DNA of 64,000 nt, from NCBI GenBank assembly GCA_009914755.4, contig CP068257.2, positions 31,456,001-31,520,000 on the forward strand, given 5' to 3'. Positions 8,424 to 51,590 of this stretch are shown here, piece by piece. How positions within the stretch are numbered: position 1 is the stretch's first letter; every line of letters starts with the position of its first letter. The position numbers and the translations under genes were made by a program. Under the pieces are notes generated by a model that was not told where the DNA came from, did no database searches, and saw only the letters and a list, made by a program, of their open reading frames with translations. This stretch comes from the human T2T-CHM13v2.0 reference genome, Homo sapiens.

Positions 8424-8452
<29 letters not shown>
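8424..8452. repeat. (GT)n microsatellite, about 14 units, preceded by a poly-pyrimidine (T/C) tract at 8396-8423
   Basis: tgtgtgtgtgtgtgtgtgtgtgtgtgtg read directly. Confidence 0.95.
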
Positions 8453-8455
<3 letters not shown>

Positions 8456-13024: not shown

Positions 13025-13720
<696 letters not shown>

Positions 13721-14673
13721 AATGCTGTCATCCGTGTCCGCTCACAGAAAGAGCAGGAAGCCCAATTGCCCCACACAAAGGCCTGAAGTGCTCGTGTGAA
13801 AGGTCACTAAGTGCTGTCATCTGGGCCAGGGAGGGGGCCGAGAAGGCGGCGCCCACTGAGAACAACAGAACCAGGGGCAGGATCTTCACCTCGGCCTGTG
13901 GCCTGGGGTGTCCAGAGAGAGAGAAAGACTCAAGTGGGAGCTGAAGGGACTTGGGAGCGAGGACGCCGGAGGGATGAGAGGCGCCTGGGCCGGTTCCTTA
14001 GGCAACCAGTGGCCCGTGGGCCTCCATAACTCTGCCCAGAGGCTGACAGCTCCCATTCATCCCCCAGGCCGGGCAGGTGGCAGGGCGGCCTGAAAGGAGC
14101 GGGGAAGCAGGAGGACAGGTCCCAGAAGAAGCCCCTGGGACGCTCCAGGCTCTGCGGGGAGGCCCCATCCTCCAGCCTCCTGCTAGGGGGATGGGAGGTC
14201 AGCAGGCTGTTTGTGGAACCCCAAGAAACACAGTTTAATGATAGCAAAAACTACTAAGCATACTATTTAGTGTCAAATTAGATGCCGTTTAATGTCACAT
14301 TTGAGTTTATAAATGTGGCCACGACTACAAAGATTTAAGAAAACAGAGCTTGGAAGTAAAACTGAGCAAGAAAAAAGCCGGGGGGGTGGGGGCTGTTTCC
14401 TTGCCCTCAACAGTCTCAGTGAGCTGGGGGCAAAGACCACAGCCATCCATTTTTCATTAGGACACTTGAGTGTGGCCCAAAGGACGCCAGGGCTCTGGCA
14501 GGACATAATTTAGGAACTGCGGAAGACAGAGCCCCAGCGCAGTTCTCTGCTATCTTGAGGCATGCTGTGCAGTTTCAAATATGGGTCTGAAAATCAAATA
14601 GCGATCTTGAGGTCTTGGGCAATTTATTTAAACTCTCAGTGCCTTGGTTTCCCACCAGTAAAAAAAGGGTTCT

Positions 14674-17065: not shown

Positions 17066-19177
17066 CCTGGGGACAAGGAGTGTTCGAAAACCAGGCACCA
17101 AGTTGTCTGGGTTTATTCCCAAGAAGGTACACTCTGCTGAGCATGAATCTGATCGGGATTCTGATTTACAATTATCTGCCCACCCCTCAACTCTGCCAGC
17201 AACCCTAAAATGGTTCACTGCTTAGCGAGCACTCTCACTCTGTGCGGTACCTTTCATGACCTTCTCTGCTCTCTGTAAACCACTGCCCCTTACCTCCCTG
17301 TCACTCTCAGCAAATGACCTTTCTGCTGCTTAGTAGAGAAAATAGAAGGCTTCAGAGAAAAACAGCCTCAACGGCCTCATTTTCCCATCCCCAGCCCCCA
17401 GTACTTTCCTGCCTCTGCCCTAGCCTCTCCTGGGTCCCTCCATTTCCATAAGAATGGAATTTTCTCCTCCAGCCCAGGTCAAATGATGCCACCTGGTTGA
17501 GTCCTCAGCCCTCCCATTTCCTGAGGCACCTGCAAATCATCCTAGCTGTCTTCTCTGGCTTCAACATCTCCTGCTTTTGTGGAACCCTCCCCCATCATTG
17601 AAACACAGGCATTTTCTTCCACCTTAAAATCGGAAAAAAAAATAAAAAAATAAAAAAGCAAATGCTCTCCCTTCACCTCACTTCCACTTCCAGCAAGCAG
17701 CTTCCATCCTTCCCAGGCGAGCTTCTCCTTGTATTATCTGCACTTCCTGCCTCCATTTCCTCCCTGTCCACACAGTCCCCTCCACCTAAGTGGCCCACGT
17801 GCTTCCAAGCCGCAAAATCCAAGGGTCTTTCCAGCCTTCATCTTCCCCAGCAGAACTGGCCATTAATAACCCGCCCTGCCTAACTGTAATATTGTATGGT
17901 CTTGAATTCTGTGACTCCACGTTCTCCTGGTTTTCTTCCTACTTCTTTGGCTACATCTTCTCAGGCTTTTGTTCATAAGTTGATTCTCCACAGGGCATGT
18001 AAATATTAGAGCTCAGGATCCCTCCTTTTTCACTCTAGTTCTTTCTGGGCAGTCTCCCTGCTGGGGCTCAAACTGCAGTGTATGTGACCACCACTTGCAA
18101 ATGCTAATCTCCACCTTCAGAGATCAGGTATTCAACAACCTAGCCCACACCTGCTGGATGTTTTAAAGGCAGCTTATACTCAAAATATCCAAAACAAAGT
18201 TCAAGATCATTTATCCCACAAACCTGGGCCCTTTCCATCTTCCCCTGTTTCTGTGGACCAAACTACCACCCATCTAGCCAGCCAGGAAAGTCATCGCCAC
18301 AATCTCCCTCTCACTCCCATTGGATCAGATTCAAAATGATGTTGCCATTGCAGGAAAGCCTCATTCTGTTTTTCTTTGTTTTGAAGAGTAGAAATGATGC
18401 TATGGGTATCTTGAGGCTTAAGAAATCCAGTAGAGAATGGAGTCTGAATTTTTAATAAAATGTTTCCCATTTCTGTGATTAGGATTCTTTTAGGGCCATT
18501 ATCCAACGATCTATCTTGATTTACCTGGTGGCTGGAAACTCCAGGATTTATGATATTTCTTGGATCTTGATTTCACAAGAAAAGATAATTCATGGAAAAC
18601 CCTTAAATCACTGTCAGACTCAGAATGCCTGCCATCCTTTCACGGTATAACCAACTGACTTACAACCTCTGTAAATAAAACCACATAATGGTTACAAAAT
18701 TTTAAAAAGGAGTTTTGGGGGGTGAGAAAATGACAAAGAGATACATGAAATTGAATTCCTAAGGAAGAATACAATTTCAAAATTGTGATTTAAATAGATC
18801 TGAAAATGTTGGCGTTATTGTCATAGGTTTTTAAAAAAATCTATCTGAAAAGGTGTCACCAGAGAGAAGAGCAAGAAAAAGATATGATCAGGCCTGATTA
18901 TAGATAGATACAGAATAATGTATATGTTGGCTTAATTCTAAATGGGATAATAAAATAAAATTTACACTTCTAATTTTGTGTCTCATGCATTACACATAGT
19001 AAAGAAATATTGGTCTACTTTTTCCAAATAATGGTAATAGTCCAATTCTGTGCTAGGTTGTTCTTTATTGGGTCTATTGATCTCAAGTGGCTCTGGCCTA
19101 AAGACTGTGATCACTCTCTGTTCTATCTGGATGCAAGTGCTGAGTTCCTTAGTCTGTTGATCAAAGAATTTCAAGGA

Positions 19178-20096: not shown

Positions 20097-21211
20097 TTTC
20101 TGGGTACAGTGTACTTAAACATTTTAAGTATGTTATTGACACTTTGCTAGGAAATGCCCATCATGAAAGAATCGTGAAAACTTCTATCATGTGTATGAAA
20201 CTTTTGCATGTTCACGGCATTTCACAACAGTAACACTCCTCTTCCTTGAAGTCCCATGGGTTTTCTGTAATCCCTGCTGGCTTTATAGTTGAGTTCACCG
20301 AGGCACAAAATAACCCATAAAGTACCATTAACAACAGAACAGCCACCATGCAGCAAAGCAATCCAGTGAGCCAAATTCCTTTGCCAGAATATCTATGCAC
20401 CAGCCCTAAGCCTGAGCCAACAAAATCCAGGTGAATGCAACACTAGATCCCAAAAATGGTTTTTGGTTTTGGCAATAAGAGTGGCGCGTCTTCATAGTTT
20501 GACCAATATTTATTTTGGTCCTACTATGGCCCAAGAGCTGTAGCAATGAGTAAAGAAGGCATGTTTCACTGGATTTCTATGCAATCATGGCTGTGTAGGA
20601 GTAGGACTAGAATGATGAGCACATAACAGGAAGATTTGACGTGGTCTGGGAGGTCTGGAGCTGCTGCCATGGGGGGGAACCATTGTCTAACATAAATGCT
20701 AAACAATGAGCATGTTATCAGTTAGATGAAGCGTGTATGCATCCCATGGTGTGGCTAGAACCCCATGGAGTTCTAGAAGAAGCTGGTGAGGGAGTCCAGG
20801 CCACAGGGTGCAGGACCTAGTTAAGGATGTGCCTCTATCCCAATACCTAGGGGCCCACAATGAGTTGATGCATCCGACTACACTGGTCATGGGAACAGCA
20901 ACTTGCTCCCCTCCCCCATAAAGAACATTCTAGCTAGCACAAGGTTATTTTAGTAAATGGCTGCCCTGCTTAGATGAGCCACTAGTCAAAAAATTCCATT
21001 TTATTAATCTGTAAGTGTAAGCCTAAAGTTAAACCTGCTTCTCAGATGTTTAATGTCGAGTGACACCCTAAATGTCATGCCAGGCTGGCTGTGGAGAGCT
21101 GGTTCATTAGGATACCAGGAGGGCTTCTAAAACTCGGATGCCCAGACCTCATCCTAGATCAATTAAATCACACTCCTGGGGGAGTGGGACCCGGCATCAA
21201 TATATTTCTTT

Positions 21212-21653
<442 letters not shown>

Positions 21654-21829
21654 TGAAACGGATTCGGGACTTTCTTTTAGCTTAAGATGAGAGTAGATAG
21701 TGGAAGAGGAGCCTGTCCAAATACCATCTGCAGACGAAGGAGCGTCTACAAAACACACGAGGGACCTAGAAACCAACAGACCCATCCCATCTCTCTCAGG
21801 TTCAGCAATTCTTTCCTTCCTCGGAGGGC

Positions 21830-22420
21830 GTTTCTGATAGGACAAGCTGGGCCCGGGCGGATTCTCACCCCACCACCCCAACTCCAGGCTTGGGTCCATC
21901 TGCCGCCAGTGGTGACTTGGGTGGCGCCCTCCGCAGCAGACAGCCGTGCGCCCTCGGCGACCCGGTCCCTGCGCTCCGGCGCCCGCAGGTCCTCGCTCCC
22001 GGCTTCTGCACCTCCCGCTCCGGGACATCTGGCTGAGCCGCGCCTCCCTCTCCCCGCAGCCTCCGCCGGCCCCGCCTCCCCTCACCACCCTTCCCTTGTT
22101 TGGGGCGGTAAGGTCAGAAGCGTTCAACAATTCAACGTGGGAAGTCTCTCGGAGGAAGTGCCAGGTCATAAATTTCACCCAACAAGAGGCTCCCATCAAG
22201 CTTGGGCTTGTTAGGAAACCTCCCAGTCGCTAATCGAGGGTTAGGCAGCTCCAGGGCGGGTGGGCTACGGGGCAGCCAGGGAGCAAGGATGAGGGCCTGG
22301 GGCTGCGGGTGCAGAGGGTTGTTGGGGTCCAGGTGTTCAGTGCCTTGCGCGCGTGGCTGTCGCTCTGCCCCTCTGGTATTGCCCGGCTGTATCACAACCC
22401 TTAGATGTGTCCAAACGGTC
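21830..22420. promoter_or_regulatory. CpG island (about 0.6 kb, GC-rich, more than 40 CpGs). Putative promoter with Sp1-type GC boxes and a splice-donor-like GCG|GTAAGG at about 22094-22102.
   Basis: Dense CpGs: ccgtgcgccctcggcgacccggtccctgcgctccggcgcccgcaggtcctcgctcccggcttctgcacctcccgctccggg...ccgcgcctccctctccccgcagcctccgccggccccgcctcccc...ggggcggtaaggtc. The GC box is GGGGCGGGGC on the minus strand. The only Alu-free GC island in the window. Confidence 0.6.
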
Positions 22421-22730: not shown

Positions 22731-23109
22731 TGAGGGAATTGGAGGGTCGGTGGGCGTGAGGCAGCTCTAAGTCCCCCTGGGCTCTAACGGCCTCTGGTCT
22801 TTGCCCCTCCTCCCTCTCCCTGCAGTACTAACAAGGTGAAAGAAGGGTCTTATCGAATTCAGCCTTTGTCCTGCTGCCATTTGTCATGGGAAATCTTTCC
22901 AGGGACTGGCACTCTGACTTGGTTGGAAAGCCAAGGGTATTGAGCCCACATCAATAGAAGGAAGGTTTGCAAGCCAAGTCTACACCTGCCCTCTGCCGTG
23001 CCCAACAGAGGGGAGACAGTCTGGGGATTATTTACCCCTGGAACTTTTGCTGCAATAAATAAAGCAATGCTGGAGGCTTGAAGGAGTTTAAAGACTAACA
23101 GGGGAGATA

Positions 23110-23310
23110 ATAATTGTTACTATGCACCAGGCAGGGTTCTAAGTCCTTTGCATAAATTAACCCACTTAAGCCTCCCAACAGCTCCCTGAGGTTGGATACT
23201 ATTAGCCCATTTTTACAGGTGGGTAAACTGAGGTACGGGGGGTTAAATAATTTGCCTAAGATCATACTACAGGGAAGCAGTAGAGAGGAGACTCGAACCC
23301 CTGAAAACAC
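23110..23310 (-). mobile_element. MIR (SINE/MIR), about 200 bp
   Basis: ..CACCAGGCAGGGTTCTAAGTCCTTTGCATAAATTAACCCACTTAAGCCTCCCAACAGCTCCCTGAGGTTGGATACTATTAGCCCATTTTTACAGGTGGGTAAACTGAGGTACGGGGGGTTAAATAATTTGCCTAAGATCATACTACAGGGAAGCAGTAGAGAGGAGACTCGAACC is the reverse complement of the MIR consensus. Confidence 0.75.
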
Positions 23311-30053: not shown

Positions 30054-30106
30054 TACACACACACACACAGACATACACACACAGACACACACACACACTC
30101 CAGCAC
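30054..30106. repeat. Imperfect (CA)n microsatellite
   Basis: tatacacacacacacacagacatacacacacagacacacacacacac. Confidence 0.9.
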
Positions 30107-32707: not shown

Positions 32708-33199
<492 letters not shown>

Positions 33200-35677: not shown

Positions 35678-35930
35678 GGGTCCCCGCCATGCCCAGAGCC
35701 AGCTCCCAGGTGACCCTGGCCCTGTGAACAAAGTTCACACTAAAACAAGGAAGAGCTTTCCTGCCCCACCTCTCTTCTCATATTTGGGGCCAGTCGGGTG
35801 GGGAGAAAACTTCTTACCACATGCAGCCTGTGTACTCCGGTCTGGTGGGATAGCAAGGTCCTGCTGTGCACAGGTCAGGCCCCGGGTGTCCTCCTGCCCT
35901 CCACCCAGCCACTGACAAATAGAGCTTTCC
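35678..35930 (+). repeat. Local low-copy repeat unit (about 250 bp), direct copy. Inverted partner at 37088-37340.
   Basis: About 90% identity to the reverse complement of 37088-37340 by eye. The six-frame track gives the same peptide on opposite strands: ..TKTRKSFPAPPLFSYLGPVGWGE..HAACVL.SGG.ARSCCAQVRP.VSSCPPP.H at 35640-35915(+) and 37091-37402(-). Confidence 0.85.
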
Positions 35931-36431
35931 TTTGTTTTGCCCTGTGACCAAAGTTCTTATATGCCTTAAAGGGGAAAGAGATTTTTTCTTATACAAAATC
36001 ACCCAGAAGCCATTCAAGGCAAACAACTCACCCAAGGGCAATCAGGAAACTGCTGACAGAGGCCAGCCAACCAGAACCAGGGTCCCTGGGCACTGGGTGC
36101 AGAGCCCAGTACCCTGAGGAAGCTGCCATCAAAGGAGTGACTCATCCCAAATGATGTCGGCATTGACCAATGAAAACAAAAGCTGAGGTAGAGAAACTGT
36201 CAGAGGGGCCTTACCTTTCCAAGCCTGGGTACCAACACTCTGAGTCCTCATTGGATCTTCTTTTGAAGACCGACCCCTGCAGGGAGACCCTCGATGAGTA
36301 AAAAATATATAAACAAATATAAACAGGTCAGTGAGCCGACCAATCACATCTTACATCCGATGGGATAAAGCCAGTGTGTCAGGGCTGGCCATGGGCTCAA
36401 AAATGTGTGGGTAAGAATTAATGTGGAATCA

Positions 36432-36769
<338 letters not shown>

Positions 36770-37087
36770 TCAGAAAAATTTTGTACTGCCCTACCTCCCT
36801 TTAGCAAAGGAGGACAGGACAATGAAGAATCTATTGGCAAAGCAGAGAAAACAGGCTATATCGCTTGCCAAGCCCCTGGAATTCTGAGAAGGTGCTTCTC
36901 CTGTGATAGCGGTCACTGGTACGGCAAGAGGTTGACAATCCCTGGCCAAAACTCCGAAGGGGGTGGCATGTTTCTGCAGAAACGCAGCAGAGGGTCAGGT
37001 ACCCCAAATGCACCCTCCTTCCTGGTAGCAAGCAGGGTCCCCCGCTGGAAGAGCTGCCTGTTTGGGGCAGGTTTTCTAAATATTAAA

Positions 37088-37340
37088 ATGTCAGTGGCCG
37101 GGTGGAGGGCAGGAGGACACCTGGGGCCTGACCTGTGCACAGCAGGACCTTGCTACCCCACCAGACTGCAGTACACAGGCCGCATGTGGTAAGGTTTCTC
37201 CCCACCCAACTGGCCCCAAATATGAAAAGAGAGGTGGGGCAGGAAAGCTCTTCCTTGTTTTGGTGGCAGGCAAGTGTCTGTGGTCAGGAGCCATGGAGAC
37301 TCGTGCCACGGACTGCGAAGCCACCCAGCCATCTGGCCCA
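37088..37340 (-). repeat. Inverted copy of the 35678-35930 repeat unit
   Basis: GTCAGTGGCCGGGTGGAGGGCAGGAGGACACCTGGGGCCTGACCTGTGCACAGCAGGACCTTGCTACCCCACCAGACTGCAGTACACAGGCCGCATGTGGTAAG..CCCCAAATATGAAAAGAGAGGTGGGGCAGGAAAGCTCTTCCTTGTTTTGGTG is the reverse complement of the 35.7-kb copy. Confidence 0.85.
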
Positions 37341-50631: not shown

Positions 50632-51389
50632 TTACGAACGTAGGGCACAAACCACCGTGGTATTTGCAGTTCCTACACCTTCCTCACCAGTCCAAATCGC
50701 TGACATTTTCAAGTTGTGTTACAATTGTTGGAGACCTCCTGAAATACTGTTTGCACTCTTACTTTATCTGCTAGACTTGCCACTCAATCTTGTTATTTAA
50801 TGTGCTTTCAAATAACTGCATAATTCTGCATCACAGATCTGTATCTGTAAAATATTTTCAGCATTATATTTCCATATAATTGGTTTCCTTTTATTCATGA
50901 GTATTTTATTTTATGCATTTAAAAATGTTATTCTGAGGAGTAGTTCGGAGGCTTCACCACACCAAACGGAACAGGGGCAGGGCTTCGGCTCTGGAGCTGC
51001 CACATTTAACAGTGAGGCTCTGTAGCTGCCATATTATTTAGTAGTTGCTGGCTGGCAGAGCCAGAAATCCACATGGAAATTGTGAGTGCATGTGCGTTTG
51101 GGTGTCTTGCAGAAGACAGCAAAGCACCTTTTAAGCATAAGCAGGACATAGCCCTGACCTCGGTGGGACCTCGCACTTTGAGATCTGAGGTGCACTCTGA
51201 CTTCTTGGGAGGAAGGGGAGGCTGAGCCCAGATACTCCTCAGTCTCCCCTACTCAGGCTCGTTCAATCAATGCACTGTCCTGTCCCCTAAGTTAGTCTAC
51301 ATGAGAGCAGTGCTTCCTTTCCTAATGAGAACAAGCGTAGAAGTCACCACTATACATGTAAGCACTGGCAGAAATGCAGGATGTGTTGC

Positions 51390-51590
51390 CAGCGCTGCGA
51401 AGATGCACACCCGCAGAAGAAAGCAACAGCAGAGAGCGCGGCAAACCACAGCCACTGTGCGGAGCTTCGCACCCAGCACGCTCCCAGAACCACGGAGCAT
51501 CAGGCAGCGCCGGCGTTCTAACCCCGCGTGCCCTCGCATGACGGCAGAGGCGTTGGTATTTAGGTTTTGTAATTAATTAACTGCCTTTCT
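51390..51590. promoter_or_regulatory. CpG-dense patch (about 170 bp, about 17 CpGs) followed by a TAATTAATTAA homeodomain-type motif
   Basis: cagcgctgcgaagatgcacacccgcagaag...agagcgcggcaaacc...tgcggagcttcgcacccagcacgctcc...cacggagcatcaggcagcgccggcgttctaaccccgcgtgccctcgcatgacggcagaggcgttgg..tgtaattaattaactg. Unique sequence with no repeat signature. Confidence 0.4.

What the first reader, a model, noticed from the sequence alone, without database searches (positions are those of the whole stretch)
21830..22420. Unannotatable CpG-island promoter with a donor-like GCG|GTAAGG: candidate TSS/first exon of an unidentified (possibly non-coding) transcript
Seen: this is the only sizeable CpG island in 64 kb, about 0.6 kb long with more than 40 CpGs, GC above 65% and no repeats. 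It carries Sp1-type GC boxes (GGGGCGGGGC on the minus strand near 22070). At 22094-22102 the sequence GGGCGgtaaggtc fits the splice-donor consensus G|GTAAGG. Established knowledge: CpG islands of this kind mark RNA polymerase II promoters, most often housekeeping or bidirectional ones. Inference: a transcript starts around 21.9-22.09 kb and exon 1 ends at the GTAAGG on the plus strand. A divergent transcript could run on the minus strand. No downstream coding exon is evident, so a lncRNA, or a first non-coding exon of a gene whose body lies outside the window, is plausible. Both 175-201-aa ORFs overlapping the island (21594-22199 minus, 21687-22214 plus) lie on opposite strands and are proline/arginine/glycine-rich, which is what GC-rich noise looks like.
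Basis: partly seen in the sequence, partly recalled or inferred. Interest (0 to 1): 0.55.

Follow-up and report, generated by a model that had tools for sequence, protein, structure and literature searches.

The report
Conserved CpG-island divergent promoter element
This is a real but ordinary short CpG island in primate DNA, attached to a 200-bp cluster of transcription-factor sites conserved across mammals; it most likely acts as a two-way promoter or enhancer-like start region for non-coding RNA, and the proposed splice donor is probably two conserved factor sites that happen to abut.

Summary
The CpG island is real. It is the only place in 64 kb that passes strict island criteria, it contains no repeats, and its composition is kept in two non-primate orthologues. 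The donor is about 10 bp off (junction 22107|22108), and the quoted GC-box string does not exist.

New finding: a near-invariant block at 22020-22235 (85% three-way identity at 22060-22209, against about 45% in the flanks). It carries a conserved E-box, CACCC box, GC box, AGGTCA, two ETS sites and ATAAAT.

The "donor" GCG|GTAAGG is where GGGCGG meets AGGTCA. A site this strong is expected about 0.2 times by chance. The supposed intron start (85%) is more conserved than the supposed exon (59%).

GC skew flips inside the block: the plus strand is C-rich to the left and G-rich to the right. This fits divergent initiation, leftward through the island (candidate donor at 21869) and rightward about 30 bp past ATAAAT.

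I found no coding exon, no known RNA family and no RNA structure. I could not name the locus and have no expression data.

Verdict: a known kind of element. The promoter idea is broadly supported; the specific plus-strand exon is not favoured. Low interest.

The parts
21830..22420 (.). CpG island as flagged: 39 CpG, GC 64.8%, o/e 0.63. It is the only Takai-Jones-grade island in the window.
   Evidence: repeat-free
21850..22110 (.). Dense CpG core: 25 CpG, GC 73.6%, o/e 0.76. The plus strand is C-rich, so a minus-strand RNA would be G-rich. Island-like composition is kept in both orthologues (GC 0.71; o/e 0.56 and 0.70).
22020..22235 (.). Near-invariant mammalian block. Three-way identity is 79% overall and 85% at 22060-22209, against 44-47% in the flanks. 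Inferred to be the nucleosome-free transcription-factor platform of the element.
22026..22031 (+). E-box CATCTG, kept in both orthologues
22085..22090 (+). CACCC (KLF/Sp-type) box, kept in both orthologues
22103..22108 (+). GC box GGGCGG (within GGGGCGG, 22102-22108), kept in both orthologues. It supplies donor positions -5 to +1.
22105..22113 (+). Donor-like 9-mer GCG|GTAAGG, junction 22107|22108, score 4.5. It is identical in both orthologues but is formed by the adjoining GC box and AGGTCA.
22111..22116 (+). AGGTCA nuclear-receptor-type half-site, kept in both orthologues. It supplies donor positions +4 to +9.
22140..22145 (+). ETS core GGAAGT, kept in both orthologues
22152..22159 (+). GAGGAAGT (ETS, PU.1-like flank), kept in both orthologues
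22168..22173 (+). ATAAAT, a TATA-like element (CATAAATTT) kept in both orthologues. It would place a plus-strand start near 22195-22200 (inference).
22200..22350 (+). Flank that is G-rich on the plus strand (skew up to +0.49). This is the inferred start of a rightward transcript. It is poorly conserved, and the orthologues are not CpG-rich here (o/e 0.33 and 0.22).
21863..21871 (-). Minus-strand donor candidate GGG|GTGAGA (last exon base 21869), score 3.7. A GT is retained in both orthologues (GA|GTGAGG and GGG|GTAGGG). It sits at the left edge of the CpG core.
21869..22090 (-). Inferred first exon of a leftward (minus-strand) non-coding transcript. The start position is not determined; about 22030-22100 is assumed. 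Three-way identity falls from 81% upstream (22091-22235) to 55% in the exon and 43% in the following intron.
   Evidence: inference

Best explanation
This is a mammal-conserved, CpG-island-associated RNA polymerase II initiation region with the usual divergent layout. A transcription-factor platform of about 200 bp (22020-22235) carries an E-box, CACCC box, GC box, AGGTCA half-site, two ETS sites and a TATA-like ATAAAT. It keeps the neighbouring DNA unmethylated and nucleosome-free.

Transcription leaves from its two edges. One transcript runs leftward on the minus strand through the CpG-dense, G-rich-in-RNA core, with a candidate first exon of about 22090->21869 ending at GGG|GTGAGA. The other runs rightward on the plus strand from about 22198, roughly 30 bp past ATAAAT, into a G-rich flank.

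The products are non-coding: a lncRNA, upstream-antisense RNA or enhancer-type RNA, or a 5' non-coding exon of a gene whose body lies outside the window. The plus-strand GCG|GTAAGG is most likely a by-product of two adjoining conserved factor sites rather than the end of exon 1.

Shown: island statistics, conservation, motif retention, the skew flip, and the absence of coding or structured-RNA signal. Inferred: start sites, direction, exon limits and factor occupancy.
For: - The island is real and unique in the window, and its composition is conserved in two non-primate orthologues.
- Three-way identity is 85% at 22060-22209, against 44-47% in the flanks.
- All seven listed motifs are retained in both orthologues.
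- GC skew is negative on the plus strand at 21750-22110 and positive at 22200-22350, and the flip falls inside the conserved block. In CGI promoters, skew co-oriented with transcription begins at the TSS and tracks first-exon length, with a median of 178-259 bp (PMC3787257). The inferred minus exon is about 220 nt.
- Conservation falls from promoter 81% to exon 55% to intron 43% for the minus-strand model.
- A GT is retained at 21868-21867 in all three species.
- Island-like CpG content is conserved only on the left side of the block.
- There is no poly(A) signal for about 950 nt going rightward.
- No Rfam family matches, there is no significant RNA fold, and no coding signal was found.
- Bidirectional initiation at human promoters is the norm (PMC11230626, abstract).
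Against: - No expression, CAGE, methylation or chromatin data could be consulted, so every start site is inferred.
- Only two orthologues were available.
- The minus-strand donor is modest (3.7 bits) and shifts by 1 nt in L001.
- Seven poly(A) signals lie within 3.1 kb in the leftward direction, which would favour early termination of a leftward RNA.
- ATAAAT is only TATA-like, and no clean initiator motif follows it.
- The locus could not be named.
Confidence: 0.5

Rival explanations
1. A plus-strand transcript starts inside the island (about 21900-22090). Its first, non-coding exon ends at GCG|GTAAGG (22107|22108) and splices to an exon further right or outside the window. The conserved sequence just downstream is then an intronic regulatory element.
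For: - The donor scores 4.5 bits and is identical in both orthologues.
- It is the only conserved plus-strand donor scoring >=3 between 21520 and 22960.
- The CpG core ends exactly at this site.
- There is no poly(A) signal for about 950 nt downstream, and a further 5' splice site lies at 23219.
Against: - The proposed exon is C-rich on its own strand (skew to -0.42), which is not co-oriented (PMC3787257).
- The proposed intron start is more conserved (85%) than the exon (59%).
- The 9-mer is the junction of a conserved GGGCGG and a conserved AGGTCA.
- 0.21 such sites are expected by chance in an island of this size.
- A strong acceptor at 21799/21800 that could make this an internal exon is not conserved.
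Confidence: 0.2
2. An orphan (distal) CpG island joined to a conserved transcription-factor-site cluster. This would be a poised or tissue-specific enhancer, or a Polycomb-tethering element, acting on a gene outside the window. It would make only short, unstable bidirectional enhancer RNAs, with no spliced transcript.
For: - The layout matches the described module of a conserved TF-site cluster with an adjacent or overlapping short CGI (bioRxiv 10.1101/2020.08.05.237768).
- The island is short and of intermediate density.
- No coding exon was found in 64 kb.
- A second conserved non-coding element with an E-box, AGGTCA and TGACAG sites lies 8 kb away at about 13700-13905.
- Negative skew upstream of the block resembles the developmental, Polycomb-associated 'reverse skew' class (PMC3787257).
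Against: - A TATA-like element, GC box and ETS sites form a typical proximal-promoter grammar.
- Donor-like sites with a retained GT sit on both sides at first-exon distances.
- The distinction from a lncRNA promoter is one of degree and cannot be settled from sequence.
Confidence: 0.25
3. A non-functional GC-rich relic, for example a product of biased gene conversion or an old decayed element, with no regulatory activity.
For: Individual CpGs turn over: only 4 of 25 core CpGs are kept in both orthologues. The island is short.
Against: - 85% three-way identity over 150 bp, against about 45% in the flanks.
- Seven recognisable factor motifs are all retained in two distant mammals.
- Island-like composition is maintained in all three lineages.
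Confidence: 0.03

Closest known systems
CpG-island RNA polymerase II promoters with divergent initiation (GC-skew class I and class IV of Ginno et al. 2013, PMC3787257)
   Same: - Passes the island criteria.
- Has conserved Sp/KLF and ETS sites.
- GC skew flips at the factor platform.
- CpG density extends to one side over a first-exon-sized stretch.
- Donor-like sites lie at first-exon distance.
   Different: - It is short and of intermediate CpG density.
- No start-site, H3K4me3 or methylation data were available here.
- No associated gene was identified.
- It carries a TATA-like element, which is uncommon in CGI promoters.
Orphan CpG islands attached to poised or developmental enhancers (Pachano et al., bioRxiv 10.1101/2020.08.05.237768)
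   Same: - A short island directly adjoins or overlaps a highly conserved transcription-factor-site cluster.
- No coding gene is nearby.
- Another conserved non-coding element lies in the neighbourhood.
   Different: - Distance to the nearest annotated TSS is unknown.
- Polycomb, H3K4me1 and p300 status could not be tested.
- The motif set here looks like a proximal promoter rather than a lineage-enhancer set.
First exon / U1 5' splice site of a lncRNA or a 5' non-coding exon
   Same: GCG|GTAAGG matches the donor consensus, and its GT is invariant in three mammals.
   Different: - Conservation is higher on the intron side than on the exon side.
- The site coincides with two factor motifs.
- The exon would have anti-oriented GC skew.
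- No junction evidence is available.

Membership tests
CpG island (Gardiner-Garden/UCSC and Takai-Jones definitions) | Length >200 bp (or >=500 bp), GC >=50% (or >=55%), CpG o/e >=0.6 (or >=0.65) | tested here: met
   591 bp, GC 64.8%, o/e 0.63. 500-bp windows starting at 21531-21951 pass Takai-Jones, and the best has o/e 0.76 at GC 61%.
CpG island (Gardiner-Garden/UCSC and Takai-Jones definitions) | Not explained by a CpG-rich repeat such as an Alu | tested here: met
   No Alu match inside 21515-22420. No internal repeats. Orthologous sequence is present in non-primates.
CpG-island Pol II promoter | Germline hypomethylation, so that CpG content is maintained over evolutionary time | tested here: inconclusive
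   Island-like composition is conserved in both orthologues (core o/e 0.56 and 0.70), but only 4 of 25 CpGs are retained in both. No methylation data.
CpG-island Pol II promoter | Conserved proximal factor sites (Sp/KLF, ETS and similar) | tested here: met
   GC box, CACCC box, two ETS sites, an E-box, AGGTCA and ATAAAT are all retained in both orthologues.
CpG-island Pol II promoter | Mapped transcription start sites (CAGE or PRO-cap) and H3K4me3 | not testable with these tools
CpG-island Pol II promoter | GC skew co-oriented with transcription downstream of the TSS | tested here: met
Met for a leftward RNA across 22110->21750 and for a rightward RNA from 22200.
   Score 4.5. Sites this good occur 0.36 per kb per strand, so 0.21 are expected in 591 bp.
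   The 9-mer is identical in L001 and L002. However, it lies inside an 85%-identical block and is composed of GGGCGG plus AGGTCA.
   Exon side 59%; first 100 nt of the intron 85%.
   No transcript database is available. Both orthologous contigs found are collinear, unspliced DNA.
Orphan CGI / poised enhancer module | Conserved TF-site cluster adjacent to or overlapping a short CGI | tested here: met
   The block at 22020-22235 abuts and overlaps the CpG core at 21850-22110. The architecture is as described in 10.1101/2020.08.05.237768.
Orphan CGI / poised enhancer module | Distal from annotated TSSs; H3K27me3 plus H3K4me1 and p300, without H3K4me3 | not testable with these tools
   No annotation or chromatin data.
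Structured non-coding RNA gene (Rfam families, snRNA-type genes) | Covariance-model match or a significantly stable fold | tested here: not met
   No Rfam hit at gathering threshold. At E<=10 there are only two noise hits, both outside the block. Fold z-scores are -0.5, +0.6, -0.3 and -2.1.
Protein-coding exon | Open frame preserved in orthologues, and homology to known proteins or domains | tested here: not met
   A 1-nt deletion in L002 and non-triplet indels break the frames. The only database matches are ORFs called on orthologous DNA. Pfam, PDB and the large protein collection gave nothing for 113 exon candidates.

The most novel reading that the evidence does not exclude
The island plus block is an unannotated, mammal-conserved orphan-CGI regulatory module. 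It works together with the conserved element 8 kb away (about 13700-13905, which shares the CATCTG and AGGTCA motifs) as a long-range control unit for a developmental or lineage gene outside the window. In this reading the conserved GGGCGG-TA-AGGTCA composite serves both as a factor site and as a U1-binding site that stabilises the rightward RNA.
Probability: 0.1. Interest if true: 0.4.

Novelty: already known. Interest (0 to 1): 0.15.

Why it matters
Its wider importance is small. CpG islands and conserved promoter or enhancer cores in primate genomes are catalogued systematically, and this one behaves as the textbook says.

The useful outcome is a corrected picture of the element:
- The functional centre is the conserved 200-bp factor platform at 22020-22235, not the CpG-dense stretch.
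- The likely directions of transcription differ from the one proposed.
- The eye-catching GTAAGG should not be taken as an exon boundary without junction evidence.

If the locus turns out to be an orphan island, it would be one more example of the CGI-plus-TF-site enhancer module.

Tried and rejected
1. Naming the locus failed by every route.
- Six 18-20-mers from the conserved block occur in no paper.
- A codon-usage scan followed GC content only.
- A splice-site plus codon exon finder gave 238 weak candidates. The top 113 had no Pfam hit, no PDB hit and no hit in the large protein collection.
- I had no positive control showing that human proteins are in that collection.
- A 15,000-aa all-ORF chimera was judged unusable and was not searched.

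2. Finding more orthologues. Two metagenome DNA scans gave nothing or a 26-bp chance match, L003, which I discarded.

3. Structured-RNA or snRNA-type gene. Rejected on Rfam and folding results. PSE-like and ZNF143-like resemblances on the minus strand were judged by eye, were poor, and the ZNF143-like site is not conserved.

4. Coding first exon. Rejected on the minus strand (ATG at CAGATGG) and on the plus strand (ATG at 22289), because of indels in the orthologues and no homologues.

5. Internal-exon reading (acceptor 21799/21800 with donor 22107). Rejected because the acceptor AG is absent in L001.

6. Alternative plus-strand donors at 22334 and 22551. Both are weak and neither is conserved.

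7. tRNA scan. Nothing found.

Full report
**Source and context.** The window is primate DNA. It contains 33 Alu blocks, and the single Rfam hit at gathering threshold is an Alu-derived SRP match at 32863-33010. There are no tRNAs. I could not tell which locus it is.

**Observation check.**
- Region 21830-22420 holds 39 CpGs at 64.8% GC with o/e 0.63. The window as a whole has o/e 0.30.
- The dense part is 21850-22110: 25 CpGs, 73.6% GC, o/e 0.76.
- The best 500-bp window (21652-22151) reaches o/e 0.76 at 61% GC.
- This is the only place in the 64 kb that passes the Takai-Jones criteria.
- The other patches that pass a loose 200-bp scan are Alus or small fragments.
- The island has no internal repeats. 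The only repeat feature nearby is the Alu at 21229-21514 with its target-site duplication.

The quoted GC box GGGGCGGGGC does not occur in the window. The minus strand has GGCGGGGC at 22069-22076, and that site is not kept in the orthologues. The two ORFs exist as described.

**Comparative evidence.** A protein search using the two island ORFs returned only two hits. Both are ORFs called on contigs that proved to be collinear, unspliced orthologous DNA.
- L001 is a 2.1-kb Logan contig.
- L002 is a 7-kb ENA metagenome contig. It carries a Bov-tA-type SINE, so it is ruminant DNA.

Alignment shows a near-invariant block at 22020-22235. Three-way identity is 85% at 22060-22209, 47% in the rest of the CpG core, 29% immediately to the right, and 44-47% in the flanks.

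The orthologous segments keep island-like composition on the left side of the block (GC 0.71; o/e 0.56 and 0.70) but not on the right (o/e 0.33 and 0.22). Individual CpGs turn over: 4 of 25 are kept in both species.

**Content of the block.** A motif inventory that required retention in both orthologues gives seven sites:
- E-box CATCTG, 22026-22031
- CACCC box, 22085-22090
- GC box GGGCGG, 22103-22108
- AGGTCA, 22111-22116
- ETS GGAAGT, 22140-22145
- GAGGAAGT, 22152-22159
- ATAAAT, 22168-22173

The block matches no Rfam family even at E<=10. Its predicted RNA folds are no more stable than shuffled sequence (z from -2.1 to +0.6). It is not coding: L002 has a 1-nt deletion inside it, and other indels are not multiples of three. 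It therefore behaves as a DNA-level regulatory platform.

**The donor.** GCG|GTAAGG scores 4.5 bits on a simple donor matrix and is identical in both orthologues. It is the only conserved plus-strand donor scoring >=3 between 21520 and 22960. Four observations weaken it as evidence for an exon boundary.
1. Sites this strong occur 0.36 times per kb per strand in this window, so 0.21 are expected by chance on one strand of the island.
2. The 9-mer is the junction of the conserved GGGCGG and the conserved AGGTCA, so its conservation has another explanation.
3. The first 100 nt of the supposed intron are 85% identical across three species, while the supposed exon (21900-22107) is 59% identical. 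This is the reverse of the usual pattern.
4. The supposed exon is C-rich on its own strand, with skew between -0.17 and -0.42.

**Direction of transcription.** GC skew is negative on the plus strand from about 21750 to 22110 and positive from about 22200 to 22350. The flip lies inside the conserved block.

Ginno et al. 2013 (PMC3787257) report three relevant points. At CGI promoters, positive skew co-oriented with transcription begins at the TSS. The length of the skewed region tracks the CpG-dense region and the first exon, with median first exons of 178-259 bp. A developmental, Polycomb-associated class shows negative skew upstream of the TSS.

Applied here, the pattern fits two transcripts.
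- A leftward, minus-strand RNA would start near the left edge of the block and run through the CpG core. A minus-strand donor candidate, GGG|GTGAGA, has its last exon base at 21869, at the edge of the CpG core, and a GT is retained there in both orthologues. That gives a first exon of about 220 nt. Conservation then falls in the classical order: promoter 81%, exon 55%, intron 43%.
- A rightward, plus-strand RNA would start near 22198, about 30 bp past the conserved ATAAAT.

The U1/poly(A)-signal asymmetry gives only a weak and opposing hint. Going rightward, there is no AATAAA or ATTAAA for about 950 nt. Going leftward, there are seven within 3.1 kb. The asymmetry idea itself comes from my own knowledge of Almada et al. 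2013 and Ntini et al. 2013. Bidirectional initiation is the norm at human promoters (PMC11230626, abstract).

I therefore favour a divergent initiation region and do not commit to which direction gives the stable product.

**Rival explanations.**
- A serious rival is an orphan CpG island attached to a conserved TF-site cluster, meaning a distal enhancer or Polycomb-tethering module. Pachano et al. (bioRxiv 10.1101/2020.08.05.237768) describe exactly this layout, with conserved TF sites adjacent to or overlapping a short CGI. Such orphan islands recruit Polycomb, lack H3K4me3 and boost long-range enhancer function. The absence of any coding exon in the window fits this, as does a second conserved non-coding element at about 13700-13905. 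That element has a 40-bp invariant run with AGGTCA, CATCTG and TGACAG motifs. Sequence alone cannot separate this reading from a lncRNA promoter.
- A non-functional relic is very unlikely, given the conservation.

**Coding content and locus identity.** A codon-usage scan only tracked GC content. A splice-site plus codon exon finder gave 238 weak candidates. The best 113 had no Pfam family, no PDB match and no hit in the large protein collection. No paper prints 18-20-mers from the block. Two metagenome DNA scans gave nothing usable.

The window therefore probably contains no coding exon. The caveat is that I could not run a positive control for human proteins in that collection.

**Verdict.** This is a genuine, mammal-conserved CpG-island regulatory element of a well-known kind. 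The promoter interpretation is broadly supported, but the specific plus-strand exon and donor are not favoured. Nothing here is surprising to a specialist, and the element is almost certainly already present in standard CpG-island and regulatory-element catalogues. Interest is low.

Noticed in passing
window 13700-13905 (GC-rich patch 13541-13850): A second conserved non-coding element, 79% identical to the ruminant contig. It contains a 40-bp invariant run (CCACACAAAGGCCTGAAGTGCTCGTGTGAAAGGTCA), a TGACAG...CTGTCA palindrome, AGGTCA and CATCTG. It looks like an enhancer. It shares the CATCTG and AGGTCA motifs with the island block 8 kb away.
   Followed up: partly
window 18196-18786: A 600-bp stretch that aligns to the ruminant contig at 71% identity. 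It could be an ancestral repeat, an exon of a leftward non-coding RNA, or another regulatory element. I did not examine it.
   Followed up: no
window 21229-21514 (duplications at 21191-21210 and 21513-21532): An Alu with a recognisable target-site duplication lies about 300 bp to the left of the island. L001 has only about 80 nt where the window has about 400, so this is a primate-specific insertion into the path of any leftward transcript. It also carries an Alu-borne 5' splice-site-like AGG|GTGAGG at 21468 on the minus strand.
   Followed up: partly
window 51365-51560: A CpG-enriched non-Alu patch (about 20 CpGs in 430 bp, o/e 0.64) of unknown nature. It has no Rfam match at gathering threshold. 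It could be an old LTR or other repeat fragment.
   Followed up: no
window 35818-35964 (-) and 37029-37188 (+): Two stretches give near-identical translations (...SVAGWRAGGH.GPDLCTAGPCYPTR...) in opposite orientation, on either side of the Alu at 36433-36729. They are probably two inverted copies of one interspersed repeat family.
   Followed up: no
window 23054-23063: Overlapping poly(A) signals, AATAAATAAA. These are the first poly(A) signals met by any rightward transcript, about 950 nt from the block. No alignment of this stretch to L002 was reported.
   Followed up: no
window 30055-30100 and 8424-8454: Simple CA/TG-type microsatellites. They produced spurious matches to the end of the ruminant contig.
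   Followed up: no
window 21799-21800 (+): A strong plus-strand acceptor (CCCATCTCTCTCAG|G, score 7.4) lies about 300 nt upstream of the donor-like site, which would frame the island as an internal exon. The AG is absent in L001, so it is probably fortuitous.
   Followed up: yes
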